Shown here: positions 22,750-48,800 of the stretch, in pieces | How positions within the stretch are numbered: position 1 is the first letter of the stretch | Layout of the letters: every line of letters starts with the position of its first letter | From: Pachysolen tannophilus NRRL Y-2460 | Taxonomy: Eukaryota | Reading direction: 5' to 3' | Length of the DNA: 64,000 bases | NCBI GenBank assembly: GCA_001661245.1 | Contig: KV454018.1 | Coordinates: 307,944-371,943 of the forward strand | Made by a program: the position numbers and the translations under genes | Notes under the pieces: model-generated | What the model was told of the DNA's origin: nothing | What the model saw: only the letters and a program-made list of their open reading frames with translations | Databases searched by the model: none

Positions 22750-22781
<32 letters not shown>

Positions 22782-22788
22782 AAAGAGA

Positions 22789-23866: not shown

Positions 23867-23900
<34 letters not shown>

Positions 23901-25800: not shown

Positions 25801-26485
25801 TAGTGAGTCTCTTTTTTTTATTTTTATTATTATTATTAACATGAGGAGTTTTTTTTTTTTTTTATTTTCTTTTCTTTTCTTTTTTCTTTCTATTTGTATT
25901 TGAATACTTTTATCTTTTATATATACTTATCTTTTATCACTTTTTGAGTCTTATTCGCTCATCTTTATAATTTTTATTACCCCATTACTCTACTACATTT
26001 CGTATCTTTTTCCTTTTTGAAAAAAGGATACAAATCCTTTTGGTCCATCAAACTTTTTTAAACCCATTTTTAGTACCAAGAAATCGACTATATTAGTCAC
26101 TTTTCTCTAACTTGACCACTTGAAAACACATATGGGATATTTATCAGTTCGTCTGGACCATACAAAATAATAACACAATTTTCAATATCTTATAAAACAT
26201 TAAAAAGAAAAGAAAAAAACCGATTTATATAATTACAATTCTAGTTTGTTTTGGTACCTACTTATTTTTGTACGTTATAAGAACGCGTAGTCAAAAAAAA
26301 AAAAAAAATTGTTAAAATATTTTTTGCTTATGACTAAAAATTAAAATCAACAACGTTTAAGATGAATGAGAATGAACGGCAAATATTAATCTATTATTCA
26401 TTAAGACCAGCTTCTATTGTTGATTCAATCCGGAAGAAGTAGATAGATTGTTGAAGGACGAAAGGATTGATAATAGAATAGATTG

Positions 26486-29400
26486 ATGATGGAGTCTATA
26501 AGTAGTAGATTAGGCAAGACTTCTGAAGTATTAGAAACTGACCAACAATACCAACAATACCAACAGGGATATTTGGTCCAAAATGATAAATCGAAGGAGG
26601 AACTAATTGAATTGAATAAAAATTTACTAAATGAAATTTCGAGTTTGAAGAAAGATAAGGAATCTTTATATGAAATAGTGATAGAAAAGGATAAGATGAT
26701 AAAGACTTTAAAATTGAAGATATCGGAATACGATAAAAAATTTCAAACGGAATCACCAGCTTCATCTTCTGGGGCCTCTGTAAAGACTCCTATCACTACT
26801 AATTTCAATTTCAATAATAAAGGCGTTAATGGGAGTCAGTCTCATCTTTCACCTCCAGTTGAGGTAATAAATAACGATAGTAATATAAATAATAATAGTG
26901 GAACAGATTCAGTTCCGCCTCCAAGATCATTACAGAGAAAGATTTCAAATAACGGGCCTTATAGAAGCAATAGGTTAACTCCATCTTCTTCAGGAAAAGA
27001 TAGTAATAGCTTGATAGGAAATAGTCCTGATAATAGTATTAATTCTAGAATTCAAAGTCAAGAGAATATTGTATCATCTAATGATTATAGTAATACTACA
27101 ATAACATCTCAAGAAATAACAATGCCAGTATCATCAGTTGATGCCAATAAGACCATTACCTTGGATGAAACAGGGAATAAGAATAAGAATATTAAAAGTG
27201 ATAATGATGATGCTTTACTTCCTGGACTTTCACCTAAAGATTTAATACCTATCAGAAATCCAAACCATCGTATTGTTTCGCCGATAAGTGTGGGAAATGG
27301 AAATGGAACTAGCAACGAGAACGGAGATATCAAGTCCCCTACAAGATCAATAAGGACAGTCAGTTCGTCGTATCTAACATCACCAGAAAGTGCTGCTAGA
27401 AATTCAATAACAACAGCATCTTTGGGTTTCGCCCGTAATAATGCAGATCTTGATCTTGAAACTCCAGAAAACTCACCTACAAAAATGAGGTATAACCCAC
27501 AATTAAAGAATGCTCCTCAACCACAAGTGAGCATTCCTCTTAATGGTATGATTTTAGGATCTACACCAAGAAGGAATCTTTCACCATGTAGAGTTGGTGC
27601 AAGAATGCGTGGAAATAGCAGTCCTGGAGCTTGGATGTCAAGATCACCACTTAAAAATGAAAGTACCAATGCAAATATTGATGATGGATACAACGCAATT
27701 AAAGACAGAAATGTTCATACCCCTCTAGTGTTGGCTAGTGATAATAACGAGGAAGAAGACGAATTTATATTTTCACCATCAAACCTTAATAATAAATCAA
27801 AATCTTCATTGACAAAGACATCAACCCATTCATCATTTGTCTTTTCAGACCACGAAAATCATAATAATAACCATACTAGTAATAATAATAATAATAATGA
27901 TATCAATAAAACTGAGGACATTGATATGGTTGTTCAATACATGAATCAGAAACTAAATACAAACGTCAGTAATGGTGCTGAAAGTGATAACCCGTATATT
28001 GTATCTCATTCTTCCTCGTCACAAACAGCAACCACTGACAATACTCGGAAACCACCTGTGATAGGACCACCCGTGATAGGAAGGCCTCTGTTAACAAATC
28101 AAAATAGTAATAATGTACCAAATATGACCCTAAATCCTCCAGCATCCAGTGGTAACTTTGATAATCGTGTTTCACAAAGTAACACAGAAAATGAATTTAA
28201 TCTGGAAACTCTGAAAAAAGCTGCTGGTTATTCCAATAATACCACTACTAGGTCTACTGCAAGCAGTACAGCTGCTTCAACACCAAATCCAAATTTGAAA
28301 ACTGACGATTTATATACTGAAGATGAATTGAAAGGATTGATGGTGAGACCAGCTGATTTACCGACTACATTAATTTGCGTGGTGAGTGTTATTGACACCA
28401 ATGCTGCGAAAGCAAACAAAAAATCTGATGATCCTTCTATCACTTTTGGATGCTTCTTTGTCGAAGAGAAAACTGGGGAAAGAAGAGAAATCTTCAAATT
28501 TTCTAAGACCTATTCGCAATTATTAGAATTTGACTCGATTATCAGACCTTTTTTCTTCCAACTAGTGCCCTTACCCGAGATTTCTGCTTTTCATAGAACT
28601 ACACCTAATACTATAGAATTTAGAAGACAGATTTTGATGAATTATTTTTTCAAAATATTTGAATTGAGAATAAAACCCAAGGGATTGTCATTATCTATTT
28701 GTCGATTTGTCTCATCCGATGTAATATTTAATTTTGATGTCAATGAAACTGTGATGAAAGAAGGATGTATGTTAAAGAAATCTATAGGGAAATTAAATAC
28801 TGGTAATAACTGGAAAATTGTATGGTGTTCGGTTTATGGATCTACATTTACGATTGATGAATTACATAGTAATCAGCTCCTGACATCTGGAAAGAAAAGT
28901 GTATTGAATGTTACAGAGTGTAAACTCGTCAATGAAGAAGATGGTAAGGATTATAAATATGCGATTTCAATTATAGAGCCGAAGAGAAGTGTATTATCTT
29001 CATCATCGAATAAGATTTTATTATGCGCAGAAAGTAATTTGGATAAAACAGAATGGCTTGAGGCATTGGCGAAGGCTTATAGTAACAATGGTAATGGTGA
29101 TTTTAGCTCGAGCAATACTTCTCTTATCAATGATGCTACAACAATGCACCCCCAGACATCAGATATTTCTTCAGATTCAAGCTCGTTGAAGCATGGTAAA
29201 TACCTTAATAGTCCTGAGGTTCCTGTTACACCTACAATGCGTAGCCATGAAGTTAATGGCAATGGTAGTAATAATAATAACGAAGGAAAAAAGAAAAGAG
29301 TCGGACTTTTCAGTATGAAAAGACAAACTAATATTTTCAACTTGGGAAATAATAGCGGCGGCAATAATAACAATAGCGTCAATGATGAAAAAGTTCAAGA

Positions 29401-30205
29401 CGATTATTTAAGGCCAACAACCATAATCGAACCTACAACAACAGTAACGCGAAATGCAAATGATACTTCATATCAAGCTTCTTCTACACTCACGGAAGAT
29501 AAGACTCCTTCAAGAAATACGGAATCCTCGTATTCATACTCCCCGTATTCTCCGACACCATCTGGAAGTGCTAGCCGTGAATTGTTTGGATCATCGTTAC
29601 AAGAGTCGATTGAGTTGTCATCTTCTGTTTATAAATCGAAGGAAATACCTTCAATATGTTTTAGATGTATTGATTTGTTAGAAAGAGAGGATGCAATATA
29701 TTCAGAAGGTTTGTTCAGATTAACTGGTAAATCTTCTGAAATCAAATTCTTGAACGATTCATTCAATTATAAATACGACTTGGATTTCTATGAATTAGAA
29801 AAATTACCGGATGTTCATTCTGTCTCTACTTTGTTGAAGAGATATCTCAGAAGCTTAAAAGAAAGCGTTATAACACCAGAGTTTATTGATGATTTGAAAA
29901 AATCTGATGCGAATAGTGGAGATAAATTTGTAGAGCTATTGAAAAAAGATGTACATGATTTGAGATTATTACCGGAAGTCAATTATAATTTGCTCTATAT
30001 TATCATAAGCTATTTAACTAAAGTTGTTGATAACAAAGAATATAATAAGATGGATATCAATAACATAACGATGTTGTTTAGTGTTAATTTTAACTGTGAT
30101 GAATACATTTTAGCAGAGTTGATCATAAATTTTAACTACATATTTGATAATACTGGGTCTATTGTCCCTGAGGATAAGAGACCGTTTATTAGAAACAAAA
30201 AATAA
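26486..30205 (+). CDS. BEM3: Cdc42 RhoGAP Bem3 (PX-PH-RhoGAP)
   Basis: PX-like FSKTYSQLLEFD, PH-like KEGCML..W..LLCAES..EWL, RhoGAP EGLFRLTG/LLKRYLR/NKM; linked to HOS3; MCB element ACGCGT at 26283-88. Confidence 0.82.
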   Translation: MMESISSRLGKTSEVLETDQQYQQYQQGYLVQNDKSKEELIELNKNLLNEISSLKKDKESLYEIVIEKDKMIKTLKLKISEYDKKFQTESPASSSGASVKTPITTNFNFNNKGVNGSQSHLSPPVEVINNDSNINNNSGTDSVPPPRSLQRKISNNGPYRSNRLTPSSSGKDSNSLIGNSPDNSINSRIQSQENIVSSNDYSNTTITSQEITMPVSSVDANKTITLDETGNKNKNIKSDNDDALLPGLSPKDLIPIRNPNHRIVSPISVGNGNGTSNENGDIKSPTRSIRTVSSSYLTSPESAARNSITTASLGFARNNADLDLETPENSPTKMRYNPQLKNAPQPQVSIPLNGMILGSTPRRNLSPCRVGARMRGNSSPGAWMSRSPLKNESTNANIDDGYNAIKDRNVHTPLVLASDNNEEEDEFIFSPSNLNNKSKSSLTKTSTHSSFVFSDHENHNNNHTSNNNNNNDINKTEDIDMVVQYMNQKLNTNVSNGAESDNPYIVSHSSSSQTATTDNTRKPPVIGPPVIGRPLLTNQNSNNVPNMTLNPPASSGNFDNRVSQSNTENEFNLETLKKAAGYSNNTTTRSTASSTAASTPNPNLKTDDLYTEDELKGLMVRPADLPTTLICVVSVIDTNAAKANKKSDDPSITFGCFFVEEKTGERREIFKFSKTYSQLLEFDSIIRPFFFQLVPLPEISAFHRTTPNTIEFRRQILMNYFFKIFELRIKPKGLSLSICRFVSSDVIFNFDVNETVMKEGCMLKKSIGKLNTGNNWKIVWCSVYGSTFTIDELHSNQLLTSGKKSVLNVTECKLVNEEDGKDYKYAISIIEPKRSVLSSSSNKILLCAESNLDKTEWLEALAKAYSNNGNGDFSSSNTSLINDATTMHPQTSDISSDSSSLKHGKYLNSPEVPVTPTMRSHEVNGNGSNNNNEGKKKRVGLFSMKRQTNIFNLGNNSGGNNNNSVNDEKVQDDYLRPTTIIEPTTTVTRNANDTSYQASSTLTEDKTPSRNTESSYSYSPYSPTPSGSASRELFGSSLQESIELSSSVYKSKEIPSICFRCIDLLEREDAIYSEGLFRLTGKSSEIKFLNDSFNYKYDLDFYELEKLPDVHSVSTLLKRYLRSLKESVITPEFIDDLKKSDANSGDKFVELLKKDVHDLRLLPEVNYNLLYIIISYLTKVVDNKEYNKMDINNITMLFSVNFNCDEYILAELIINFNYIFDNTGSIVPEDKRPFIRNKK

Positions 30206-30756: not shown

Positions 30757-32412
30757 TCAAACTTTTTGAGATGAGGTAAAGTTGTTGTTCTCATTTTCGT
30801 TTCTCTCCATAGAATTTGTACTGCTTGCTGTAGAAGCATTAGAAGGAGCATTCTCCTTTCTTTCTTCAGAAGGTTTATCGTCAAAGACACCTTCAACTGG
30901 AGGCAATTCAGGAACATATCTTCTTGTTCTCCATGCTGGGATGTTGTCCTGCCACATCTTATCTATTTCTTCTAAAGTCTTTCCCTGGGTTTCTGGAAAG
31001 AAGAACAAGACATTGAAAAACATGGCGACACACAAGACACCAAATATGATATATGTTTTCCAGCTAATATTATGGAATGCTGTTGGGACAAACATTCCCA
31101 AGGCAAAGTTGAAAATCCAATTTAATGAAGTACATAAACCATTTGCCTTAGCTCTTTGTCTATTTGGGAAGATTTCTGAACAATAAACCCAAACACCTGG
31201 ACCCCAAGTTGGAGCAAAACTTGCGACGAAAAGATAAGAACAAGCAATGATTGCCTTTGATGCTGTGTTATTGTAAGAAGGAATTGAGATGGTAATATTT
31301 TCATTACCGTCGAAATCTACAGCTGGGACAGAGTAAACCGCCAAGAGTCCTGCAACAGCAAATAACCATGTAGTCATAAATGCTGCACCAACTAATAGAA
31401 CAACTCTTCTACCTATTCTATCAATAAAGAGCAATGCAGGTATTGTCATTACCACATTAATAACGTATTGAATTGACGAGGCAACTAAATTAGCATTTCC
31501 GCTATAGCCAGCCATTTCAAAAATATAAACGATATAATACATCATAACGTTCATACCACACATTTGTTGCCAAATTTGAGCACACATACCAACACTTGTA
31601 CGTCTAAAGTTTTGTTTGTTAAACAATTCCAAATAAGTGACATCTTTTGCTTCTTGGTCAATAAATGTTTGCTCTTTAATTTCTTCCAATTCTATAAGAA
31701 CATCAGCTTCTTTTAATTTTTGCTTACTACCAATACTTCTAATAATTTGTTCAGCTCTATCCCATTTCCCATGATTTGCTAACCAACGTGGAGATTCTGG
31801 AAGGAATGGAGTACCAACAAACAAGATGATACCAGGAACAATTTGAAGTCCCCAAGCTAATCTAAAACTACCAACACCATCAATGAAAGAACAACCGTAA
31901 CCTATATAAAACATAATCATAATACCAATAGTAACAGCCCATTGGAAAACACCTCCCAACATACCTCTAATTTTCTTTGGAGAAATTTCAGATATATAAC
32001 TTGGTGCTGTAGAAGAGGAAAGCCCAATACCTAATCCAGAAATAAATCTACCACAAATTAACTGAGCTCTATTTTGTGAAGAACTTTGAATCAGAGCACC
32101 AATCATCCAAAGCATAGAAGAAATTTGGAAACAGAAACGACGTCCCAATGGGTCTGAAATAAAAGGAGTACCTAAAGATCCAATAAAAGATCCACCAGCC
32201 ATCGAAGATGAAATACCACCTTGAGTAATAGTATCAGGACTATCGAAAAATTCTAAATAATTTTCTTGAGAAAGGAAGGCTGAAATCGAAGAGATATCAA
32301 AACCAAACATCAACCCACCAAGAGTGGAAATAGCAGCTATGATGAACACATTATGTGTCTTGGGAAATTTATCGTAGAAATTGGAAACAACGTCTGCTCG
32401 ATTTTCAAACAT
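30757..32412 (-). CDS. HGT1: High-affinity hexose transporter, Hgt1 family (sugar porter)
   Basis: GGLMFGFDISS, QIWQQMCGMNVMMYY, PESPRWL, IDRIGRR, PETQGKTLEE, IPAWRT; these are K. lactis Hgt1 / C. albicans Hgt1-2-type signatures. Confidence 0.88.
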   Translation of the reverse strand: MFENRADVVSNFYDKFPKTHNVFIIAAISTLGGLMFGFDISSISAFLSQENYLEFFDSPDTITQGGISSSMAGGSFIGSLGTPFISDPLGRRFCFQISSMLWMIGALIQSSSQNRAQLICGRFISGLGIGLSSSTAPSYISEISPKKIRGMLGGVFQWAVTIGIMIMFYIGYGCSFIDGVGSFRLAWGLQIVPGIILFVGTPFLPESPRWLANHGKWDRAEQIIRSIGSKQKLKEADVLIELEEIKEQTFIDQEAKDVTYLELFNKQNFRRTSVGMCAQIWQQMCGMNVMMYYIVYIFEMAGYSGNANLVASSIQYVINVVMTIPALLFIDRIGRRVVLLVGAAFMTTWLFAVAGLLAVYSVPAVDFDGNENITISIPSYNNTASKAIIACSYLFVASFAPTWGPGVWVYCSEIFPNRQRAKANGLCTSLNWIFNFALGMFVPTAFHNISWKTYIIFGVLCVAMFFNVLFFFPETQGKTLEEIDKMWQDNIPAWRTRRYVPELPPVEGVFDDKPSEERKENAPSNASTASSTNSMERNENENNNFTSSQKV

Positions 32413-32699
32413 TTTTTGTCCATAGAAATAATTAAAAGAAAAAAAAGAGAAAAATACAACTCTGTTAAAAAGGGGAAATTAACAAATATATATACAAATA
32501 TATATATATATATGCTAATACTACATAAGATTTTAAACTCTTTTTTTAAAGTGACATAATTCCTTGGTCATAGTATCAACAATCAACTCATTTTAATAAC
32601 TAGATTACCTCTGTCCGGGAAAGCATTGAACAATTCATTTTTTTATTTGGAGGGTTAAAGACATGCATCCAAAATGCATAACGCAAATTTAAACATTAA

Positions 32700-33580
32700 A
32701 ACTGTTCGGAAAAATAGAAACGAAAAAAACTGACAAGTCACACAATCAAGTCATTAGCTTTTTTAGAGTTTGACTTCTTGTCTAACTTGAAACTTGCTTG
32801 AACCAATAGGAAAAACTGAAGGCACTCCAAGTTAAAAACTGAAAAACTGTAAAAATAAAAAAATGTCACCTTCATGCATCTCCGGAACCGCATAAATATG
32901 CATGGCTAAAATAAGAATTGTGGAGAATTTGGGGACAGGAACTCTGGGGAAATCGGCAGGATTGCTTTTAGGAATAGGAAAAACTAGCCGGTGATCCTTC
33001 TAGAATTGTGCTTCTGAGAGCGGAATAAAGTAAATATATAAAGTCAAATGATTTACGTCCAAGGATTGACGGGGTTTTTTCCCCATAAACTGTCTGCAGC
33101 AGTGCTTAAGATAAATTTCGGGAAATTAGCCAATTAGATCATGAAAGAAGCAGTAATTCAGAACCATGAGTGATCTCATTGCGCATGTGTATACTTGAGG
33201 TTAAAAACTGGGGAACTGCCTGGTGCATTGGTGGGAAGTTTTCCTGAAAGCTTAAAAGTTGGATAAATAGGAGAATGATTTTTAAAGTCAAAGTTAATAC
33301 TGAATTTTAGCTAAATTTGGTCTCTTTAACCTACCTAATTTCACATATTTTTCCATATCTTTTTCTTTTCTTTTTTTTTAGAATCAAGTAAGTCATAACA
33401 CAGGAAAATCTAGTATCTTACTTAGCCTTAGATGTCAAGGATAGAGCAAAGTGGGAGTTCTATCTTTTCCGTGAATAGTGAGCGGGTTAGGGATCTTAAG
33501 ATACAAAACGGAAAATTTTGAATCTTGTTAAGTGATATTTTTAATGTTACAGCTTACAATTTTCAGAACGTTACGTTTTT
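32700..33580. promoter_or_regulatory. HGT1 upstream region with Rgt1-like, Mig1-like and GTRACRTT elements
   Basis: CGGANNA at 32707, 33021, 33509 and rc 33465; SYGGRG at 32920, 32944, 33208; rc GTRACRTT cores at 32862, 33543, 33567. Confidence 0.5.
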
Positions 33581-33635
33581 CCTACATGTTTAAATTAGGT
33601 CAAGGAAATGTAATTCCATTTTTACGTATATAAAA

Positions 33636-34712
33636 TTATTTTTGTAAATAAAGTATTTCAGATAAATTTGTTAATCTTGTTGCAGCCTGTTCAGGTGTTA
33701 GATCTCTTTGAGGTTCGCCCAACAATTCAAAACCAACGAGGAATTTTCTAACTGTAGCACTTCTTAACAATGGTGGGTAAAAATGCATATGGAACCAAGA
33801 AGTATTTTCGGTTTCTTCATCGCACCTTAATGGTGCTTGATGCATTCCCATAGAGTAAGGGAAAGAAGTTTCAAATAAATTATCGTATCTAGTAGTCAAT
33901 CTTTTAATGATATCTGCCAAATCTTTTTTTTGCTTGGTATTAAATTTTTTTATCGAAGTCAAATGTTCTTTGGAAACAATCATGGTTTCAAAAGGCCATA
34001 CGGCCCAATATGGTACCACAGCTATAAAAGAATCATTCTCAACAACAATTCTTTCCCTTTTCTGTAATTCTAATTGGACATAATCACCCAACAAATGTGA
34101 ATTATGGGTTTTCCTATAATTCGACATATTGAGAAGCTCATGATCAACCTCTGTTGGAACAGTATCAAGGCACCAAGCTTGTCCATGAGGATGAGGATTG
34201 GAACATCCCATAGCTGAACCTTTATTTTCAAAAATTTGAACGTACTTAAAAGGTTTAGATGAATCTTTTTGTAAATCCACATACAATTGCTGCCAAATAT
34301 TCACAACTTTTTCAATCAGTTCAATATCCATCTGGGGTAAGGTTAAATTATGTTTTGGAGAAAAACAAATGACAAAACATTGGCCCTTAACACCTTGGGT
34401 ATGGAATAACCTCGACTCTAAAGAATCATCATTATCTTTCTCTTCACTATGATAATCTGGTTGATCTAATTTAACTGCTGAGTAATCATTCGGAAACACA
34501 AAAGTTGTTTGATAGTCTGGATTCACCGGCCCAGTAGCACGTTGATTCCTAGGACAAAGATAACACTTAGGATCATACTCTGGCCTATCATCTTTTGGAA
34601 CATCCTCTTTTTGACCTAACCATGGTCTCTTGGCTCTATGTGGAGAAACCAAAACCCAGCTATTGGATAATGGATTATAACGACGATGTGAGTGATCTGT
34701 AAAATCAAACAT
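33636..34712 (-). CDS. GAL7: Galactose-1-phosphate uridylyltransferase
   Basis: HSHRRYNPL, HRAKRPW.GQ, CYLCP, FENKGSAMGCSNPHPHGQ, LRSATVRKF. Confidence 0.98.
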   Translation of the reverse strand: MFDFTDHSHRRYNPLSNSWVLVSPHRAKRPWLGQKEDVPKDDRPEYDPKCYLCPRNQRATGPVNPDYQTTFVFPNDYSAVKLDQPDYHSEEKDNDDSLESRLFHTQGVKGQCFVICFSPKHNLTLPQMDIELIEKVVNIWQQLYVDLQKDSSKPFKYVQIFENKGSAMGCSNPHPHGQAWCLDTVPTEVDHELLNMSNYRKTHNSHLLGDYVQLELQKRERIVVENDSFIAVVPYWAVWPFETMIVSKEHLTSIKKFNTKQKKDLADIIKRLTTRYDNLFETSFPYSMGMHQAPLRCDEETENTSWFHMHFYPPLLRSATVRKFLVGFELLGEPQRDLTPEQAATRLTNLSEILYLQK

Positions 34713-35072
34713 TTCAAAACAAAGTCTAAGCAGTAGCCCTATTCACTAGATGAAATCAAAGTCAACCATTTAAAACGGGATTTCACAATTATATATATAT
34801 AAATAAATATATGAATATATATATATATATGACCATATATTATTATCTTTTGTCAGAACATGTTCGTGGTACTATTCCTGTTTCGGTCTCGATGTTTCAT
34901 TTTACTTTTTCGTAATGTAACATTCTGCAATTATAGCAATTTTTTGAGTTGAAAAATTTACTAGACGGGACCAGGGTGTAGATTGGTCATTTCAAAATTG
35001 AAAACCTGAAATAAACAAGTCAGTGATAGGACTTGAAATTTAGATGAAACTGTTGTTCTTTGCAAAAAGAGG

Positions 35073-36142
35073 ATGAAAGTTTTGGTTACTGGTGGGGCTG
35101 GGTTCATGTACGTATTGATGAAATAGTGAAACTGTGAAACGTGAATTGTAAGTTTTGAAGGGTTGCTACTAACATTGATGATTTCATGGTTTCGAAATAA
35201 TATAGGGGTTCATGGTCGGTAGAACATTTGGTTGAGAATCAACATGATGTGATTTGCTTTGATAAGTTGTCTTATGGTGGTAATTACCAAAACGTTTCGC
35301 ATTTGGAAAGCTGTAGTAATTTTAAATTTGTCAAGGGAGATATTAAAGATGCCCAATTGGTTTCTAAGTTAATTGAAGAGAACGATATAGACACGATTCT
35401 TAATCTTGCTGCAGAATCAGATGTTGATAGGTCTTTTGTTGAACCTTTGTATTTTACAGAAAATAATGTCTTGGGGACACAATCGTTACTCGAAGTTGTG
35501 AGGAATTCAACACGTAAGATACTTTTCATTCAGATTTCCACAGATGAAGTTTATGGAGAACAAGATGAAAATGCATGTATTGATGAAAATGGGAAATTAA
35601 ATCCAACCAATCCTTACTCTGCTACTAAAGCTGCTATTGATTTAATTTTAAGCGTTTATAAATTATCATACAAGTTACCCATTATAATTGTGAGAAGTAA
35701 CAATGTTTATGGACCAAGACAATACCCAGAGAAAATTATACCGAATTTCATAGTTAATTTGTTGAAAAATCAACCCCTTGTCATTCATGGGAATGGTGAA
35801 AATAAAAGAAAATATTTATATGTTAAAGATTTTGTCCGAGTTATTGATTTAATGTTAACAAGAGGTAAAATTGGAGAAACTTATAACATTGGTACGGATT
35901 TTGAAATTTCAAATTTAGATCTCTCAAAAATGTTGGTTGATAATTTTCATAATTCTCAAAGTGAAATAATTTTTGGTAAAGATAGATTATTTAATGATTC
36001 TAGATATAATATAGATTTTGATAAATTGAAAAAATTAGGATGGCAACCTGAGATAGAATTTTCTCAAGGTTTAAGTGAAACAATTACTTGGTATAAAAAA
36101 TTTGGATTACACTGGTGGACCGATATAAAAGACAACAAGTAA
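35073..36142 (+). CDS. GAL102: dTDP/UDP-glucose 4,6-dehydratase (RmlB-like; GAL102/ORF-X), spliced: join(35073..35107,35206..36142)
   Basis: Exon 1 supplies the Rossmann start MKVLVTGGAGF(M)GS; intron has GTACGT, TACTAAC (35167-73) and TAG; STDEVYG, YSATK, NNVYGPRQYPEK, DRLFNDSRY. Confidence 0.9.
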
Positions 36143-36180
36143 AAAGCTTAAATTTTTATCTAGATATTTATGTATTTTAT

Positions 36181-37755
36181 TTATTTGCTATATTTTAGAC
36201 CGTCTTCCCCACCAACGTATAAACTACTACCACAAGCTGGTTTAGAAATAACAATTGCTTCTTTTAATTCTGCTTCCGTGATAGTAGGGAATTTTTTCTT
36301 GTAGTACTTTTCGATTAAGGCTTTTTCAACGGTTGATACTTTATCTGAAGGTATTAGATGAACAGTACAACCACCCCAACCTGCTCCAGTTAATCTTGAT
36401 CCTGTACTACCAGCCAGTCTTGCAATAGAACAAACTTCATCAATTTCAGAACATGAACAACCATAGTTTGAATCACATGATTTTTGAGATTCATCCATTA
36501 ATTCACCAAATTTAGTGAAAAATTCTAAAGAATCTGAAGGTTTTGATTCTAATAAGAATAATGCATCCAAGACTCTTAATTCTTCCGAATAAGTATGTTT
36601 TGCACGTTTATACAATTGTAATTTATCAAAAATAACAGTATTTTTACTCAAGAATTTTTCTTTATAACCTTCTACCGATAAACCAATACCAGAAGCAGCT
36701 TGTTCAAGAGTGTAACCTTCATCTTTTAATTCAAATGTCTTTTCAACTAATTCCAACATCTTGTTTAATCTTTTCTTACCTTCAGAAGCATCACCGTTCC
36801 AAGGAGGAGAGTTATGATATTTAGCATAATACAGATCCATGAAGCTACTTAAAGTTCCAGTAGACAAACCACTATCCTGTTTCAATATATCATTCACGCC
36901 ATATGAACGAGCTAAAAATTCAGCAGCAGAGCAGACTTCCACAACCCTTAGATTATAATTTCTCGGAGCAGTCTCATGCTTATTAGAAACCACCAAGGTA
37001 TTTGCAATTAAAAATGAAATTGGTGGCTTTGTATCTGGGAATTTAAACAGGGTACAACTTAATTTTGGTTTAAACTGAACATATAAAGCATGATCTCTCT
37101 CACCATAAATTGAAGCGGTCTGATCCATTCCACCAGTATTGACACCAACATATTTTTCAGAGACAACACAAATCTTTGATAAATTTTCCCTTGTTAATAA
37201 CGATTCCTCAATATCGTTCACTTTCAAACAAGCCAAGGCAACACTACATGCAAATGCAGCAGAAGAACTCAACCCACCACCTATAGGAACAGTACCATCT
37301 GCAATAACTTGTAAACCTTTCAAAGGCTTACCTTTCCTTTCAGGGTAATGCTCCAAGATAAATAAATGAGCTACCAATAAACCACACTTAAAATAATTAG
37401 ACCAATCGCTAATTTTACTATCAATAGATATCAACGACCCATCTTCAGGTAATTCAAATTTCTTCTCAGCAAACTCATTACTCAAATTTTTCAAATGAAT
37501 TTCTCTTGAATCTGCCCTACTCTTGACTGCAATGACAAAATCAACATCAATTGCCAATGGTAAAACCGAAAAATATGAATAATCAATATGCTCCCCAATT
37601 AAATTAACCCTTCCAGGAGATCTCGAGATAAAATCTGGGGTAGCTTTAAAAATTGACTTAAAGCTATCAAAAAGCAGCTTATACCTATCAACTTGCTGAT
37701 CCGGATAAGAATAAAAATCAAGAGTTTTAAATACCGGAATATCTGACTTACTCAT
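36181..37755 (-). CDS. GAL1: Galactokinase, 524 aa
   Basis: RSPGRVNLIGEHIDY, PIGGGLSSSAA, GGMDQ, GSRLTGAGWGG; true ATG at 37755 (MSKSDIP). Confidence 0.97.
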   Translation of the reverse strand: MSKSDIPVFKTLDFYSYPDQQVDRYKLLFDSFKSIFKATPDFISRSPGRVNLIGEHIDYSYFSVLPLAIDVDFVIAVKSRADSREIHLKNLSNEFAEKKFELPEDGSLISIDSKISDWSNYFKCGLLVAHLFILEHYPERKGKPLKGLQVIADGTVPIGGGLSSSAAFACSVALACLKVNDIEESLLTRENLSKICVVSEKYVGVNTGGMDQTASIYGERDHALYVQFKPKLSCTLFKFPDTKPPISFLIANTLVVSNKHETAPRNYNLRVVEVCSAAEFLARSYGVNDILKQDSGLSTGTLSSFMDLYYAKYHNSPPWNGDASEGKKRLNKMLELVEKTFELKDEGYTLEQAASGIGLSVEGYKEKFLSKNTVIFDKLQLYKRAKHTYSEELRVLDALFLLESKPSDSLEFFTKFGELMDESQKSCDSNYGCSCSEIDEVCSIARLAGSTGSRLTGAGWGGCTVHLIPSDKVSTVEKALIEKYYKKKFPTITEAELKEAIVISKPACGSSLYVGGEDGLKYSK

Positions 37756-37810
37756 AACGCAAAACCAAAAAGCAAAAAAAAAAANAAAAAACAAAGGAAA
37801 AGAAAAGAAA

Positions 37811-37901
37811 NNNNNNNNNNNNNNNNNNNNNNNNNNNNNNNNNNNNNNNNNNNNNNNNNNNNNNNNNNNNNNNNNNNNNNNNNNNNNNNNNNNNNNNNNN
37901 N
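37811..37901. other. Assembly gap (N run)
   Basis: 91 N. Confidence 0.99.
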
Positions 37902-38685
37902 CTTTGTATCTGGGAATTTAAACAGGGTACAACTTAATTTTGGTTTAAACTGAACATATAAAGCATGATCTCTCTCACCATAAATTGAAGCGGTCTGATC
38001 CATTCCACCAGTATTGACACCAACATATTTTTCAGAGACAACACAAATCTTTGATAAATTTTCCCTTGTTAATAACGATTCCTCAATATCGTTCACTTTC
38101 AAACAAGCCAAGGCAACACTACATGCAAATGCAGCAGAAGAACTCAACCCACCACCTATAGGAACAGTACCATCTGCAATAACTTGTAAACCTTTCAAAG
38201 GCTTACCTTTCCTTTCAGGGTAATGCTCCAAGATAAATAAATGAGCTACCAATAAACCACACTTAAAATAATTAGACCAATCGCTAATTTTACTATCAAT
38301 AGATATCAACGACCCATCTTCAGGTAATTCAAATTTCTTCTCAGCAAACTCATTACTCAAATTTTTCAAATGAATTTCTCTTGAATCTGCCCTACTCTTG
38401 ACTGCAATGACAAAATCAACATCAATTGCCAATGGTAAAACCGAAAAATATGAATAATCAATATGCTCCCCAATTAAATTAACCCTTCCAGGAGATCTCG
38501 AGATAAAATCTGGGGTAGCTTTAAAAATTGACTTAAAGCTATCAAAAAGCAGCTTATACCTATCAACTTGCTGATCCGGATAAGAATAAAAATCAAGAGT
38601 TTTAAATACCGGAATATCTGACTTACTCATAACGCAAAAACCAAAAAGCAAAAAAAAAAAAAAAAAAACAAGGAAAGAAAGAATC
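37902..38685 (-). repeat. Direct duplicate of the GAL1 5' half and leader (copy of about 37027-37810); probable assembly overlap artefact
   Basis: Apparently identical coding sequence at offset 875, abutting the gap; differs only in A-tract lengths; ATG at 38630. Confidence 0.85.
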
Positions 38686-39300
38686 AATTAACTTCTTCTT
38701 CTTCTTTTTATTATTATTATTATTAAAATTTGACAGCGACTCAAACTATTATCGAAAAAACTGGGGACTTCCCACCGGTATATATGTGTCAAGAGTATCT
38801 ATCGTCCGTTCTGAATTTTCGTGGGGTTTCCGAACAAAATTTTTCAACTTATGCAGGTATTAAAGGGAAGGTGACGTTACTTTATTTCTCCACCAATGCA
38901 TGTTTTCGTGCATGCTTTTCTCCGTCCAAACAATATGTCCCAAAAGGAAGACCAGCCTAAGTAACTAAGAACCAATAAATATAATTGAATAATTTGAAAC
39001 TTTGTAAAATGGGAAGGTCAAAAGAGGTTTTTTGAAATATATAATTAATTATAAACAAAACATAACGTGTGAAAGTTTGAAAAGCTTTAATTTGGTTTGT
39101 TTTTCTGGTAGGCTAATTAATCATTTGAGAATTTCTGTCTTCCGAATTGATATAACAGTTTTCCGAAATAGATCTGGGGTAAGAGGTATATAAAAGTATC
39201 GAGAAACTTGGAATTTAACATTGATCCTTCTTGTTTGTTCTTTCTTTCTTTTTTTTTAGTTCATTCATTCATTTTGCAGTCATAGTGTTTTATACAAAAT
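38631..39300. promoter_or_regulatory. Divergent GAL1-GAL10 promoter
   Basis: Mig1-like CTGGGG/GTGGGG at 38761, 38821, 39174; GAAGGTGACGTTAC at 38867-80; Rgt1-like rc sites at 39138 and 39159; TATATAAA near 39187; no CGG-N11-CCG seen. Confidence 0.65.
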
Positions 39301-41370
39301 ATGTCTTACATTTTGGTTACTGGTGGTGCTGGGTATATCGGTTCGCATACCGTTGTGGAATTGGTAAATAATGGTTACAACGTTGTTGTTGTTGATAACT
39401 TAGTTAATTCTTCTTATGATGTTATTGTAAGAATTGAGGTGTTGACTAGGAAACAAATTCCTTTCTTCAAGATTGATTTGAATGATCATGATGCGTTGGA
39501 TCAAGTTTTTAAACTGTATCCTATCCAAGCTGTTTTGCACTTTGCTGCTTTGAAAGCAGTTGGTGAATCTACTAAATTCCCATTAAATTATTATAGTAAT
39601 AATGTTGGGGGTGCAATTAGTTTGCTAAAAGTTATGGAAGAAAACAATGTTAAAAACATTGTTTTCAGTTCTTCTGCAACGGTTTATGGGGATGCTACAA
39701 GGTTTGAAAATATGATTCCAATCCCTGAACATTGTCCAACGGGACCTACAAACCCATATGGTGAAACCAAGATTACCATTGAAAACATTATCAGGGACGT
39801 TTATGCTAATGATAAGTCATGGAAATGTGCAATCTTAAGGTATTTCAATCCAATTGGTGCTCATCCTTCTGGTTTAATAGGAGAAGATCCTTTAGGTATA
39901 CCTAATAATTTGCTCCCTTTCTTAGCTCAAGTCGCTATTGGTAGAAGGGAAAAATTAAGTGTCTTTGGAAGTGATTATAATTCCAAAGATGGTACTCCTA
40001 TAAGAGACTACATTCACGTGATCGATTTAGCAAAAGGTCACATTGCTGCTTTAAATTATCTTTTCAACCATAAAGATAATGGTCTTTGTAGAGAATGGAA
40101 TCTTGGAACAGGTAATGGTTCTACAGTCTTTGAAGTTTTCAATGCCTTTTGTGAGGCAGTTGGTAAAAAATTGCCATTTGAAGTTGTTGGTAGAAGAGAT
40201 GGTGATGTCTTAAATTTAACTGCAAATCCAAAGAGAGCAAATACAGAATTAAAATGGAAAGCTCAATTATCGATTAATGATGCTTGTAAAGATTTATGGA
40301 ATTGGACTACGAAAAATCCATTTGGTTTCCAAATAAACAATTATTCATGGACTAAATTTGATTCTGAATCGTTGACAAATTATGATAGATTAAATACTGT
40401 AAGGACTTTTAACGGTAAATTTGAAGTTTCAATTTCAAATCATGGTGCTACAATTGTTGCAGCTAAATTAAACGGAATTAAATTAAATTTGGGTTTTGAT
40501 AATTTGAAAGGCTATTTAAGAGAAGATAATCCATTCTTTGGGGCTACTATTGGTAGAGTTGCTAACAGAATTTCTAAAGGTGATTTACTCATTAATGGAA
40601 CCCATTACCAAGTTGGTTTAAATGAGCTGCATCGTACATCACTTCATGGTGGTACTTATGGTTATAACAAGAGGACTTTCTTGGGTCCAATTGTTAAGAC
40701 AAACGAGAAGGAAAAGGAAACTACCATGGAATTTGTCTTGATTGATTTAGATGGTACTGAAGGATATCCAGGTGATGTCGAGACTAAAGTCATCTATACA
40801 GTTAGAGATACCGGTGTAGGAGGTGAGCTTGGTATTGAATATGAGGCTAAGTTATTAGAAGAAAGTGGTCGTGATTCCACAGCAGTTAGCTTAACCAATC
40901 ATTCTTATTGGAATATTGGTAATCAACCTTCAATTGAGGGAACTCACATTAAATTAGTTTCAAATAAACATTTGGAGAGTAATCCTCTGGATTCAACTCC
41001 AACTGGTAAAATTGTTACTTCAACTGATTTGGATTCCCAAAATTCTGCCAAATTAGGTCCAGATGGTCCTGTATTTGACTATTGTTTTGTCACAAAACAA
41101 CAGGATAAGTTGGATACAAGAAATGACGAGCTACGTGTTGTTGCAACTGCAACACACCCAAAGACGAGAATTGCATTCACTACTTTGACCACAGAACCTG
41201 CATTCCAATTCTACACTGGTGACGGTGTCGATGTTGCTGGAGTTTTCACCAAGAGAAGTGGATTCTGTCTTGAAGCTAGCAGATACATCTATAACCCAAA
41301 ATGGTTTATTCCTTTGAATAAAGGGGAAGTTTACGGTTCATATACCATTTACAGGTTCGAGAATTTTTAA
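39301..41370 (+). CDS. GAL10: Bifunctional UDP-glucose 4-epimerase / aldose 1-epimerase
   Basis: GGAGYIGSH, SSSATVYG, YGETK, LRYFNPIGAH; mutarotase domain GRVANRI, LHGG, TNHSYWN, QFYTG, GFCLE. Confidence 0.98.
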   Translation: MSYILVTGGAGYIGSHTVVELVNNGYNVVVVDNLVNSSYDVIVRIEVLTRKQIPFFKIDLNDHDALDQVFKLYPIQAVLHFAALKAVGESTKFPLNYYSNNVGGAISLLKVMEENNVKNIVFSSSATVYGDATRFENMIPIPEHCPTGPTNPYGETKITIENIIRDVYANDKSWKCAILRYFNPIGAHPSGLIGEDPLGIPNNLLPFLAQVAIGRREKLSVFGSDYNSKDGTPIRDYIHVIDLAKGHIAALNYLFNHKDNGLCREWNLGTGNGSTVFEVFNAFCEAVGKKLPFEVVGRRDGDVLNLTANPKRANTELKWKAQLSINDACKDLWNWTTKNPFGFQINNYSWTKFDSESLTNYDRLNTVRTFNGKFEVSISNHGATIVAAKLNGIKLNLGFDNLKGYLREDNPFFGATIGRVANRISKGDLLINGTHYQVGLNELHRTSLHGGTYGYNKRTFLGPIVKTNEKEKETTMEFVLIDLDGTEGYPGDVETKVIYTVRDTGVGGELGIEYEAKLLEESGRDSTAVSLTNHSYWNIGNQPSIEGTHIKLVSNKHLESNPLDSTPTGKIVTSTDLDSQNSAKLGPDGPVFDYCFVTKQQDKLDTRNDELRVVATATHPKTRIAFTTLTTEPAFQFYTGDGVDVAGVFTKRSGFCLEASRYIYNPKWFIPLNKGEVYGSYTIYRFENF

Positions 41371-41845
41371 AATTAAAAAAACCTACTAAAAACTATGGAT
41401 GATGCGATGATCTTATTTTCTTTATTTTTTTTTTTCTTCATTTTCTTTACGTTTTCATTTTACCTCTTGCTTCCTCTTTTTATTTATGCAAAAACAAAAA
41501 TTTAATGATGCTATATAACAGCACACTTTATCATTTTTAACAGAAAACCTAATTAGCTTGTAATGTAAGTTGTAAGTGGATTTTTTGCTCAACTTGAGTA
41601 AGAGTTGTAAGCGATCTTAACAATCATTAAAAGAGAGACAGGTATTCTTCAATTGCGATTACAGCAATCAAAGCAAACCAGAATATACGTTTGACAATGA
41701 AACAAAATAATTTTTGGAGTCACCATGGGTCAATCTCTCCATTTGAATAAACAGTATAATATAATATACCTGATGTAAACACATTCAGCAAAAACATACA
41801 GCAAAAGCACTTACATTGCGATCGTGGCAATCGACCATCTCCTAA

Positions 41846-41935
41846 GCGGATTTAGCTCAGTTGGGAGAGCGTTAGACTGAAGACGTGCTAAGCGCTGCAA
41901 TCTAAAGGTCCTGTGTTCGATCCACAGAATTCGCA
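41846..41935 (+). tRNA. tRNA-Phe (GAA) with 17-nt intron (41883-41899)
   Basis: GCGGATTTAGCTCAGTTGGGAGAGC...GAA (41879-81)...GGTCCTGTGTTCGATCCACAGAATTCGCA followed by a poly-T Pol III terminator; anticodon stem TTAGA/TCTAA. Confidence 0.97.
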
Positions 41936-42200
41936 ACTTTTTTTTTTTTTTTAGTACAATTATTCTATTAGTACTACTAGTACTAGTACTACTCACGAAT
42001 GCTAACAGTTGATAGTTGATAAACTTATATATGTATATATATACCTGAGTTGACTTTTAGTTCGAAATAATTCTATGATTTATGGCTATATAAGAAATAT
42101 AAAAGTGAAGAAAAAGAAAAAAAAAAAAAGAAAAAAAGAAAAAGTAATGAAGAAGGAAGGAAGTAAACAGTTAAAATCAAGACTGTTTTGAATTTTTATT

Positions 42201-45853: not shown

Positions 45854-48800
45854 CTATTTTGCCAAATGTGTATTTGATCTGACTTTATCAACCTCATTCA
45901 ATAGTTTATCGTAAGCTTCATCCAATTCAATAGAATTCAAAGATTTTGGAGATTCTGAAATATCTCCGTTCTCAGTTGACGAAGAGCTACCTTTTCTTGA
46001 AGTCAAATTTGATTTCTCATCACCTTCCACAATATTTTCAAGGTTCGCATAGTTATCTAATTCAGCTTGCTCAAAATTCTGTCTTTGGTTAAGATCTAGT
46101 GTATCTTGACGATTTCTATAAACTTCCAAAGTTTGATACAAATCTTCAATTTTTAAACTTTTATCGTTATTGAATCTATCAATCAAATCGGTAACAGTTT
46201 GTAAACCTTTTGCTTTTATAATAGCTTCTCTTAATTCAGGACCAGAAGGTAAAATACTCAACTTAGGTCCCAAATGTGTTGGTGATTTGGTCTCCAGTGG
46301 TTGAGACTTGACTGTAATTTCGGGCACTACAGTAAGAGATGGAACTTCCTCAGAACGTTTATGATTGTCCTGCTTACCCGCTAATGTTGATGAAGTTGGT
46401 GGGGATCCAGGAAATAATGAATTTTGTTGTTGTACAAAAAAACCCCATCTGTGAAATTCACCTTCTTCTTCTTCTTGTTTTTTAGCGTGCTCAGAGGTAT
46501 GTGATAACTTTCGAAATAAAACTGGTTTTCCAGTGGTATAATCAACCGGAATATCCTTACCTTCCTTTGTAGATTCAACAACTACTTGGCGAGGCTGTTC
46601 AGTATTTGCTGGAGGACGATTTTGAGAATTTGGAAAATATGAAGTTTTCTCATCTTTCAAAGGTAAGTCAGGAGAAACAATGGGTCCAGTTTCTAAAATA
46701 TCAGATGAAACTTTATGAAGATGCAAGTCATCATCTGGGAATATAACTTCGTTCAAACTCTTATATTCCTTTTCAGCAGGAACATTAACACCAGCGGTTG
46801 GATTCGTGTTAGATATAGCCAGCGTATTGCTAGGTTCTTCTCCAAAAATATTGACCACTTTTTCTAAGGAATTATCCAATAAACAAAATCTAATTAAGGT
46901 TTCCTTACCTTCTAAGGATAATTTGCCCTTCATTCTCAATTCAAATAATATATCCATCTGTTTGTGAATTTCTTTTCTAACTCTACTAGTCTTTTCAACC
47001 AATGCCTTAGTAATAACTTCTTTGGTGTATAAATCATCGTCTTTCTTGTTCGTTTGCAGATTCATACTTTCATCTTTATTCAACAATTTTTCGGCTGCTT
47101 GTGTGATGACCGAACCATCAAACATCAACTCTTCATTAGTACTATGATATTTAATCTGTGAGTCTTTATTCATTGCCTTCTCCATATTAATCATTAAATA
47201 TAATGCGATTTTTGAAGATAAATCTTCTGGAATTAAATCGTAATCAATGTCTAAAGTATAAACGCTTGATAACTTTATAGCTCCATATAATGCAACCGCA
47301 GTGGCATAATTAATATCTTTGTGCCCTAAAAAGGAAACATGAATTAAGTTTTTACAATGAGGAAATGTATTAGAAATGGCAACTAATTCAGGGCTAGTCA
47401 ACTCGTCTAGCTCAAAATGAATTCTTCTCAATTCTGGGAATTTTGGTAACCATTCTATCAAAGTTGGAATAATTCCTGGGAAAATTTGAGCAACATTACT
47501 CAAATCCAAAAATCTCAAATTTGATAACTTTGATAAGGTCATAATCATTGCTTTACAATCTTCCAAAGTAACATTTGTCGAATTTAGGGAAAAAAATGCC
47601 AACTTCGTCTTTTCATCGAAAGAATCTATAAATGGTCTCAATTGTCCATTGCTTAAATCATTGAACGCAATATCAACACCATTACATGTTGACTTTGGAG
47701 CTTTAATCCAGTTTGTTAATATCTGGCATTTCTCAAGATTTAAATTGGTAGCTGCAACACCTAATCTCTTAGTAGAAATTGAGACACCATTTTCAATTAA
47801 ATGCTTAAATTGTGCATCTGTCATTTTGCAACCATTAATAACTAATTCATCTATACCACGTCTTACATTTAATGAATCTGTGAAAATTCCCCAATCCATT
47901 TCAGACCTAATGGCCTTCTTTGGAGTATCCTGTTTAATTTTTTGCTGTGATATATCCAATTTGATCAATGATTTTGACAAAGTCAAAAATTTACATAAAT
48001 AAAGCCATCCTTCACTGTCAAGAGCAACATTTCTTAATGATAGTTTTTCTAAAGTTTTTGAATTTGAAACTGAGGATAATATTATCTTGATCATTTCAGT
48101 ATCTAAGGTGACATTATCGAATATTATAGTCACGATTGGTGTAATGGCAATGAAATCTGAAAATGATAAAACATCAATTAATGTCGGTTTTGGATTCAAC
48201 ATTTTTAAGACTGGAAGTGGTTTTGATTTATTTTTCAATTGTTTTAAAGTTGCTGGAATCGGTAAAATTTCTCTTAAATGACAACATCTTGTATATATAA
48301 CATCCAATGGTAATTCTTTTAAAATATCTTCAACATCAGATTCTTCAGCTGAAGTCAAATCTTCCTGTGGATCATTTTCTTTTGCAAAATAATCAATGTG
48401 TTGATGCAATGGATTATCAATATTTTGAACTTTTGAAGTACTATGAACATAAGCATCCACATTTTCTTCAATTTCTTCATCCTTATCAACATTTCCTTTG
48501 GCGAATTTGGATACTCTAAAAGTAGAAACTTCCTTTGCCATTCTTTGTGCAGCTAAATGTGCTTCCTGAGCATGTTTATTAGCTTCAATCACCGATTGTC
48601 TTTGAAGTTCATAAGCCATTTTTAATTGTTCTTGATCAACGCGATTTTTAGCTGGAGACGAAAGAGTATTATTGGCATTTACAATCCCAAGTGAGACTCT
48701 AGGAGGTTCAGCTAAAATTTCTTCTGGAGTAATAACGTTACCTTTCTTAGGCGTTCTTGACGGAATTTGTTGCTGAGGATCATCTTTTAATCCATCTAAG

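What the first reader, a model, noticed from the sequence alone, without database searches (positions are those of the whole stretch)
30757..41935. Five-gene GAL cluster: HGT1-GAL7-GAL102-GAL1-GAL10, closed by a tRNA
Seen: a transporter, all Leloir enzymes and an RmlB-like 4,6-dehydratase are contiguous, arranged as two divergent pairs (GAL7/GAL102, GAL1/GAL10). No GAL4, GAL80 or GAL2 is in the window. Known: Candida-type clusters contain GAL102/ORF-X with HGT2 nearby, but in a different order, and S. cerevisiae lacks both. GAL clusters with ORF-X have been reported in several yeast clades, so the core is not new. Inference: a self-contained uptake, catabolism and deoxy-sugar-branch module, possibly close to the ancestral arrangement, with Hgt1 as the galactose importer.
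Basis: partly seen in the sequence, partly recalled or inferred. Interest (0 to 1): 0.7.

Follow-up and report, generated by a model that had tools for sequence, protein, structure and literature searches.

The report
Yeast galactose cluster, one pair inverted
This is the already catalogued galactose-use gene cluster of the yeast Pachysolen tannophilus: it has the same two back-to-back gene pairs as Candida yeasts with one pair flipped, and a sugar transporter beside it whose upstream DNA looks co-regulated.

Summary
The five genes and the tRNA are real: HGT1(-), GAL7(-), GAL102(+, one intron), GAL1(-), GAL10(+, fused), then an intron-bearing tRNA, by my reading Phe(GAA). The host is the CUG-Ala yeast Pachysolen tannophilus. 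Its GAL1/7/10 cluster is in published surveys.

It is an assembly artefact: contigs of 4 of 4 runs cross it unbroken.

The order is the Candida/Scheffersomyces pair structure with GAL1/GAL10 inverted and no TRS23. Gal102 is a true orthologue, sister to all 12 other yeast-type Gal102s sampled, which fits an old GAL7/GAL102 link. Nadsonia is the best hit of Gal7 and Gal1, but the trees and AU tests leave this unresolved.

'Self-contained' is overstated: I found no rhamnose-pathway reductase, no Gal4 sites, and two more Hgt1 paralogues. The cluster HGT1 upstream region shares more words with the GAL1/10 promoter than any other of 253 intergenic pairs. The scan had no related earlier finding.

The parts
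30757..32412 (-). HGT1/HGT2-like high-affinity sugar porter, 551 aa; one of three close paralogues in the genome
   Evidence: Pfam Sugar_tr E 7e-114; TIGR00879 over cut-off; Atlas top cluster 'High-affinity glucose transporter 1', 0.99, which may be its own cluster; paralogues at 75% identity on C7 and C1
32413..33635 (.). HGT1 upstream region (includes the GAL7 3' end); 4 SYGGRG and 4 CGGANNA matches; an 11-mer and a 12-mer shared with the GAL1/GAL10 promoter lie near 33203-33240
33636..34712 (-). GAL7, galactose-1-phosphate uridylyltransferase, 358 aa, HPHGQ motif intact
   Evidence: best named hit Nadsonia fulvescens, 74%
34713..35072 (.). 360-bp divergent promoter of GAL7/GAL102; no Gal4, Mig1, Rgt1 or Rtg-like match
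35073..36142 (+). GAL102, NDP-glucose 4,6-dehydratase (RmlB-like), 323 aa, exons 35073-35107 and 35206-36142
   Evidence: spliced product = P0001; top 10 PDB hits all (d)TDP-glucose 4,6-dehydratases; TIGR01181 355.9 bits, just under its 365.1 cut-off; tree
35108..35205 (+). 98-bp spliceosomal intron in GAL102
   Evidence: donor, branch point and acceptor found; this acceptor gives an open frame, the other one tested does not
36181..37755 (-). GAL1 galactokinase, 524 aa, single true copy
   Evidence: best named non-self hit Nadsonia, 60%
37765..38639 (.). Assembly artefact: poly-A contig end, N gap and a second identical copy (37904-38639 = 37029-37764) of the GAL1 5' part
   Evidence: 736 bp identical; single contigs cross 37027 with flat depth in 4 of 4 runs; public 737-aa Gal1 record P0241 is residues 1-217 followed by residues 5-524
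38631..39300 (.). 670-bp divergent GAL1/GAL10 promoter; 4 SYGGRG, 4 CGGANNA, one GTGACGTTAC Rtg-like site at 38871, no CGG-N11-CCG
39301..41370 (+). GAL10, fused UDP-glucose 4-epimerase / galactose mutarotase, 689 aa, single copy
41846..41935 (+). tRNA gene with a 17-nt intron, read as tRNA-Phe(GAA); a neighbour, no functional link shown
   Evidence: isotype from intron position and recalled yeast tRNA-Phe

Best explanation
This is the native, vertically inherited Leloir (GAL) cluster of a CUG-Ala yeast. Gal10's mutarotase makes alpha-galactose, Gal1 phosphorylates it, Gal7 exchanges it with UDP-glucose, and Gal10's epimerase regenerates UDP-glucose (established pathway; catalytic motifs shown intact; activity not tested). 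GAL102 is an old passenger that shares GAL7's promoter and dehydrates UDP-glucose for cell-wall glycan chemistry, not for galactose catabolism (inferred from its C. albicans orthologue). The two divergent pairs are the conserved units, and one inversion of GAL1/GAL10 separates this order from the Scheffersomyces and S. pombe order (shown against published orders). Regulation is Gal4-independent and probably runs through glucose repression (Mig1-type) plus Rgt1/Rtg-type inputs (inferred from motifs). The linked HGT copy is probably co-regulated with GAL1/GAL10 and helps import galactose (inferred). The tRNA is incidental.
For: Intact single-copy genes. The species grows on galactose and is listed as clustered, as are the two Nakazawaea species of the same clade. 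Gal7+Gal1 lie outside the core CUG-Ser1 clade (100/100) and outside Saccharomycetaceae (100/100); a clade with Brettanomyces is rejected, p-AU 0.0003, as expected if Brettanomyces carries a transferred cluster. Gal102 is sister (SH-aLRT 99) to a 12-row clade (98) that holds the named Candida, Metschnikowia, Priceomyces and Schizosaccharomyces proteins. S. stipitis order is GAL1-GAL10-(unk)-GAL102-GAL7, divergent / tandem, convergent / divergent; S. pombe order is gal7-gal102-gal10-gal1. No CGG-N11-CCG in the cluster's intergenic DNA. HGT1-upstream versus GAL1/10 promoter ranks first of 253 intergenic pairs for shared 9-mers (14) and 10-mers (8); 1 of 300 and 0 of 300 shuffles reach the observed 10- and 11-mer counts. 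CCACCAATGCA occurs 4 times in the genome, and the two copies outside the cluster are inside ORFs. K. lactis Hgt1 is reported to carry galactose (passage); C. albicans HGT2 is GAL-linked and galactose-induced (passage).
Against: The deep branching among Pachysolen, Nadsonia and Babjeviella is unresolved (supports 43/79, 56/68, 78/85), so vertical origin is not proven; a clade of Pachysolen with the core CUG-Ser1 type is only borderline disfavoured (p-AU 0.052). Neither Cephaloascus nor Nakazawaea was a named row. The promoter words were chosen after being seen; at k=11 the focal pair only ties for first (3 words); the second-ranked pair is cluster HGT versus the C1 paralogue (11 nine-mers), and both paralogues' upstream regions also hold 3 and 5 SYGGRG sites. 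The GAL7/GAL102 promoter has none of these motifs. In C. intermedia all GAL-cluster genes were reported among the 20 most induced on galactose, and that cluster includes ORF-X (passage), so GAL102 can be co-induced. Orthology of the linked HGT to Candida HGT2 was not tested.
Confidence: 0.7

Rival explanations
1. The cluster shares a horizontal-transfer history with Nadsonia: either Nadsonia's cluster came from a Pachysolen-like (CUG-Ala) donor and not from Cephaloascaceae, or Pachysolen itself took the cluster from an early Serinales lineage.
For: Nadsonia is the best named non-self hit for Gal7 (74%) and Gal1 (60%). Pachysolen+Nadsonia has 88 in the Gal7 FastTree and 89/87 in the 22-row concatenated tree, inside a 94/95 clade with Babjeviella. 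That clade is not rejected in the 19-row set (p-AU 0.45). GAL7 and GAL1 have consecutive accessions in Nadsonia and Babjeviella, compatible with a 7-1-10 order.
Against: The grouping collapses when more outgroups and a sister of Babjeviella are added, and it is open in the Gal1 FastTree. The published arrangement (Nadsonia with Serinales, Pachysolen outside) is not rejected either (p-AU 0.165). Pachysolen and Nadsonia are the two slowest rows (root-to-tip 0.45 and 0.49, against 0.60-1.13), which alone can give a best hit. Haase et al. place Nadsonia with Cephaloascaceae, which I could not sample by name. Nadsonia's GAL10 is a pseudogene in that variety, so consecutive accessions do not fix the order. 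GC3 of the four cluster genes measured (0.23-0.26) lies within that of three neighbours (0.20-0.27).
Confidence: 0.15
2. GAL102 and HGT1 were recruited beside the GAL genes independently in this lineage, in parallel with Candida (and, for HGT1, with Torulaspora).
For: HGT sits on the GAL7 side here but near GAL1 in Candida. HGT1 joined GAL clusters separately in Torulaspora. There are three similar HGT copies, so the linked one may be a local duplicate. No named Babjeviella or Nadsonia Gal102 appeared among the 120 listed hits or the 10 of 150 representatives looked up.
Against: GAL102 has the same partner and the same head-to-head orientation as in S. stipitis, which is unlikely to arise twice. 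The hit lists are truncated, so absence of a Babjeviella or Nadsonia Gal102 is not shown. Two inversions would also bring HGT to the Candida side (my inference). This rival is more plausible for HGT1 than for GAL102.
Confidence: 0.1
3. One reading: a self-contained module in which imported galactose is channelled through Gal102 into deoxy-sugar (rhamnose-type) synthesis.
For: GAL102 shares a 360-bp promoter with GAL7, its substrate UDP-glucose is the Leloir cofactor, and its motifs are intact. UGP1 lies about 15 kb away. GAL102 presence helps predict galactose growth across yeasts (passage).
Against: No RmlD/NRS-ER-like reductase among 3 genome matches (the search scores only its best candidates). 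In C. albicans rhamnose and the downstream enzymes were not found and gal102 mutants grow on galactose. S. pombe gal102 has been lost repeatedly. Predictive value follows from linkage alone.
Confidence: 0.05

Closest known systems
CUG-Ser1 (Serinales) GAL cluster: S. stipitis GAL1-GAL10-(unk)-GAL102-GAL7 and C. albicans with TRS23 and nearby HGT2 (PMC2784038, PMC2880306; passages seen)
   Same: The same two divergent pairs (GAL1/GAL10, GAL7/GAL102), fused Gal10, orthologous Gal102, a linked HGT-family transporter, no Gal4 sites.
   Different: GAL1/GAL10 pair inverted relative to GAL7/GAL102; no TRS23 (Sybindin matches lie on C2, C4, C6, not C8); HGT on the GAL7 side; sequences fall outside the core CUG-Ser1 clade; CUG read as Ala.
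Schizosaccharomyces pombe gal7-gal102-gal10-gal1 cluster (PMC13123837; passages seen)
   Same: The same four enzyme genes with GAL102 next to GAL7 and no intervening gene named.
   Different: Order of gal1 and gal10 swapped; acquired by horizontal transfer from Serinales; the canonical cluster is described with four genes, no transporter.
Nadsonia fulvescens / Cephaloascus albidus and Babjeviella inositovora clusters (bioRxiv 10.1101/2020.07.22.216101; parts 1-4 of 5 read, figures not seen)
   Same: Closest Gal7 and Gal1 sequences; GAL7 and GAL1 have consecutive accessions in Nadsonia and Babjeviella.
   Different: No annotated protein lies between GAL7 and GAL1 there; their exact orders were not visible to me; a sister relation is unresolved.
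Torulaspora giant GAL clusters, HGT1-GAL7-1-10-4-2 progenitor (PMC7898345; passages seen)
   Same: HGT1 beside GAL7 and a 7-1-10 order.
   Different: A Saccharomycetaceae cluster with GAL4, GAL2, PGM1, MEL1 and no GAL102; the Gal sequences lie in a separate 100/100 clade, so the likeness is convergent.

Membership tests
Budding-yeast GAL (Leloir) cluster | GAL1, GAL7 and GAL10 adjacent and intact | tested here: met
Budding-yeast GAL (Leloir) cluster | Fused epimerase-mutarotase Gal10 | tested here: met
   Epimerase 4-257 and Aldose_epim 371-685 in one ORF
Budding-yeast GAL (Leloir) cluster | Galactose induction and enzyme activity | not testable with these tools
   No expression or assay data in hand; growth on galactose is listed in PMC8084343 supplement file 13
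CUG-Ser1-type GAL cluster | GAL102 orthologue head-to-head with GAL7 | tested here: met
CUG-Ser1-type GAL cluster | Order GAL1-GAL10-TRS23-GAL102-GAL7 | tested here: not met
   GAL1/GAL10 inverted; TRS23-family genes on other contigs
CUG-Ser1-type GAL cluster | Gal proteins nest in the core CUG-Ser1 clade, as in the transferred clusters of Brettanomyces, Wickerhamomyces and Schizosaccharomyces | tested here: not met
   Outside the 100/100 core clade; even a sister position is borderline (p-AU 0.052)
CUG-Ser1-type GAL cluster | Rtg1-Rtg3 palindromes in all three GAL promoters | tested here: inconclusive
   One Rtg-like site in GAL1/10, none in GAL7/102; the patterns were recalled, not taken from a call; 8 bHLH genes in the genome, not assigned
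Saccharomycetaceae Gal4/Gal80 regulon | CGG-N11-CCG sites upstream of GAL genes | tested here: not met
   0 sites in the four cluster intergenic regions, though a 1059-aa Gal4 homologue and a 375-aa Gal80-like protein exist elsewhere
Gal102 / RmlB-type NDP-glucose 4,6-dehydratase | GxxGxxG, T-D-E and YxxxK motifs; dehydratase hits above epimerase hits | tested here: met
   GGAGFMG, STDEVYG, YSATK; TIGR01181 356 bits against galE 136; PDB
NDP-rhamnose pathway | Downstream 3,5-epimerase/4-reductase in the genome | tested here: not met
   PF04321 search: 3 matches, none a reductase; a stand-alone RmlC family was not searched
Candida HGT2 (GAL-linked transporter) | Orthology to Hgt2, as opposed to Hgt1 or a lineage-specific duplicate | not tested

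The most novel reading that the evidence does not exclude
The GAL7/GAL102 head-to-head pair and a 7-(102)-1-10 order predate the split of the CUG-Ala and CUG-Ser1 yeasts, and the Nadsonia cluster was transferred from a Pachysolen-like CUG-Ala donor (or Pachysolen's own cluster is a further, unrecognised transfer). That would revise the view that CUG-Ser1 yeasts are the only donors of GAL clusters and that the GAL102-bearing structure arose within CUG-Ser1.
Probability: 0.15. Interest if true: 0.55.

Novelty: already known. Interest (0 to 1): 0.27.

Why it matters
As it stands it is a known cluster in a known species and a minor point of gene order. Three details are useful. First, an orthologous GAL102 head-to-head with GAL7 outside CUG-Ser1 dates that link deeper, unless the unseen figures of Haase et al. 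already show it. Second, the public protein records are wrong for this locus (a 737-aa Gal1 fused across the duplication; a 269-aa Gal7 prefix), which can mislead comparative work. Third, the shared promoter words name one of three Hgt paralogues as the candidate galactose carrier in a pentose-fermenting yeast, which is directly testable.

Tried and rejected
Tandem GAL1 duplication: rejected as an assembly artefact (4 runs from at most 3 samples and 2 studies, one of which may be the source of the assembly).

GAL102 as a pseudogene (only a 96-aa ORF): rejected, it has a canonical intron.

tRNA-Val(GAC) call of ARAGORN: rejected in favour of Phe(GAA) on intron position and recall.

Pachysolen+Nadsonia sisterhood: seen, lost; neither it nor the published alternative is rejected.

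Metagenome scan for other yeast clusters: 80 loci kept of 578; none was a yeast GAL cluster (fungal single GAL1 genes and bacterial-type gal operons), so synteny was taken from papers and accession numbers only.

Expression: no RNA holder listed.

Papers not held: Slot and Rokas 2010, the Genetics version of Haase et al., Riley et al. 2016. bioRxiv supplements and all figures were not seen, and they bear directly on novelty. A recalled 1994 report that this species' GAL10 is xylose-inducible was not found and is not used. Searches for a description of this five-gene order gave none in the passages read.

Earlier scan findings were unrelated.
Full report
Observation. The region holds, in order, a sugar porter (30757-32412, -), GAL7 (33636-34712, -), an RmlB-like dehydratase (35073-36142, +), GAL1 (36181-37755, -) and a fused GAL10 (39301-41370, +). 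The dehydratase looks broken in an ORF list but has a 98-bp intron with canonical signals; the spliced protein is identical to P0001, which the tool names as a Pachysolen tannophilus protein. At the 5 CTG positions of Gal1 and Gal7, Leu is not among the six commonest residues of about 119 homologues and Ala is the commonest at 2 of 5; record P0122 reads Ala at its CTG. This fits NCBI table 26. Rfam finds one RNA gene in the window, the tRNA at 41846-41935, with a 17-nt intron; I read it as Phe(GAA) from recall. Catalytic motifs of all four enzymes are present.

Artefact. Positions 37904-38639 repeat 37029-37764 exactly, beside a poly-A run and an N gap. A true 736-bp repeat would break short-read contigs at 37027. 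Instead 5710-bp contigs span 32082-37784 in runs X1, X2 and X5, and a 5234-bp contig spans 32539-37772 in X4, with flat depth. These are at most 3 samples and 2 studies, and X5 may be the source of the assembly. The public 737-aa Gal1 (P0241) is residues 1-217 followed by residues 5-524, and P0122 is a 269-aa prefix of the 358-aa Gal7. GAL1, GAL10 and GAL102 are otherwise single-copy.

Order. S. stipitis has GAL1-GAL10-(unk)-GAL102-GAL7, divergent at both ends (PMC2784038, table passage). C. albicans has a TRAPP subunit and orf19.3674 between GAL10 and GAL7, with HGT2 near GAL1 (PMC2880306, passages). S. pombe has gal7, gal102, gal10, gal1 (PMC13123837, passages). Read from the right, this window gives GAL10-GAL1-GAL102-GAL7-HGT: the same two pairs with GAL1/GAL10 flipped. 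Sybindin-family genes lie on C2, C4 and C6, not on the window's contig.

Origin. Gal102 groups with yeast Gal102s (SH-aLRT 99) as sister to the other 12 (98), apart from Trichomonascus and the filamentous fungi (quick tree of 35 rows that I selected from the hits; names). Its best BLAST hits are chytrids at about 50%, which I put down to faster evolution in the other yeasts. For Gal7 and Gal1 the best named non-self hit is Nadsonia, then Babjeviella. A 22-row Gal7+Gal1 tree gave (Babjeviella,(Pachysolen,Nadsonia)) at 94/95 and 89/87. AU tests on that set: Pachysolen+Nadsonia p 0.45; Serinales+Nadsonia+recipients without Pachysolen p 0.165; Pachysolen with the core clade p 0.052; Pachysolen+Brettanomyces p 0.0003. 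Pachysolen and Nadsonia are the slowest of 15 ingroup rows. Gal10 was not put in a tree. So the cluster is not a core CUG-Ser1 transfer like that of Brettanomyces; vertical descent is the simplest reading; a link to Nadsonia is neither shown nor excluded.

Regulation. There is no CGG-N11-CCG in the cluster's intergenic DNA, nor in 14.8 kb of other intergenic DNA of the window. A Gal4 homologue (C6, 1059 aa) and a Gal80-like oxidoreductase (C3, 375 aa, E 1e-38 to K. lactis/S. cerevisiae Gal80 structures) exist elsewhere; their role is unknown. SYGGRG and CGGANNA each occur 4 times upstream of HGT1 and 4 times in the GAL1/10 promoter (3.3 and 6.0 per kb against 0.68 elsewhere), and not at all in the GAL7/102 promoter. 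These two regions share the most 9- and 10-mers of 253 pairs, and tie for first at 11-mers. One shared 11-mer has 4 genomic copies, the other two inside ORFs; a shared 12-mer has 6 copies, of which the other four were not inspected. Against over-reading: the words were picked after the fact, and the paralogues' upstream regions also carry SYGGRG sites (3 and 5) and share words with the cluster copy. In C. albicans Mig1 represses HGT1 and HGT2 (PMC6994163, passages) and Rtg1-Rtg3 activate the GAL genes (PMC5067116, passages). The motif patterns other than SYGGRG and the Gal4 spacing were recalled.

Gal102's role. C. albicans Gal102 is a UDP-glucose 4,6-dehydratase; its deletion does not affect growth on galactose but alters the wall, and downstream rhamnose enzymes were not found (PMC3219719, passages). 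It is not galactose-induced there, though C. intermedia reports its whole GAL cluster as induced (PMC11497787, passages). Here an RmlD-family search found only Gal102, Gal10 and an Erg26-like protein. A complete deoxy-sugar branch is therefore unlikely.

What is known. Haase et al. (bioRxiv 10.1101/2020.07.22.216101; parts 1-4 of 5 read, no figures or supplements) curated cluster structures by hand, name P. tannophilus as the closest cluster-bearing relative of Brettanomyces, and mark the entry of ORF-X and ORF-Y on a figure I could not see. LaBella et al. (PMC8084343; passages and rows of supplement file 13) list P. tannophilus and both Nakazawaea as complete, same-contig and growing on galactose. 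Harrison et al. (PMC11067038; passages) scored GAL102 across 1,154 strains. I found no text describing this five-gene order, but the unseen supplements probably draw it.

Verdict. A real, known GAL cluster with a one-inversion order variant, an assembly artefact in GAL1 and a plausible co-regulated transporter. Interest 0.27. The bolder reading, a CUG-Ala donor for Nadsonia or an unrecognised transfer, stays open at about 0.15.

Noticed in passing
window 13895-15406: UGP1 (UTP-glucose-1-phosphate uridylyltransferase, Pfam UDPGP E 1e-189) lies about 15 kb from the cluster, with five genes between. It makes the UDP-glucose used by Gal7 and Gal102; probably chance.
   Followed up: no
window 18292-30205 and 45854-63674: The flanks look like one old linkage group: HOS3-, TOA1-, SLK19-, BEM3-like on the left; HER1/GIP3-, RPL5, RCN2-, COX11, RDS2-, MCT1-, RPB8-like on the right (Pfam; names and S. 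cerevisiae synteny recalled). The GAL cluster with OST1 and RRP7 seems inserted into it, at a site unlike the Saccharomycetaceae GAL locus.
   Followed up: no
window 50340-50644: A second N gap (305 bp) between poly-A runs; no duplicated 25-mer was found across it.
   Followed up: yes
window 11281-13434: A 717-aa ORF with only 17% GC, rich in Asn/Lys/Leu/Ile/Phe and with no Pfam hit, in the lowest-GC part of the window.
   Followed up: no
L098:950-4129 (G000 C6) and L089:1081-2208 (G000 C3): The genome encodes a full-length Gal4 homologue with an acidic tail (…LNDIYSLIFDEF…) and a Gal80-like protein, although the GAL promoters have no Gal4 sites; possibly parts of the regulon before its rewiring.
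   Followed up: partly
L003:1415-3055 (G000 C7) and L004:5060-6760 (G000 C1): Two unlinked HGT paralogues at 75% identity; one lies 1.4 kb from a contig end, the other next to a chitin-synthase-like gene.
   Followed up: partly
window 35073-36142 (P0001 tree): Yeast Gal102s do not group with the Trichomonascus and filamentous-fungal dehydratases; unnamed metagenomic proteins, one labelled Pacearchaeota, are nearest by path. This may be long-branch attraction or a separate origin of GAL102.
   Followed up: partly
window 41960-41995: A short TAGTAC/TACTAG repeat just behind the tRNA's T-run terminator.
   Followed up: no
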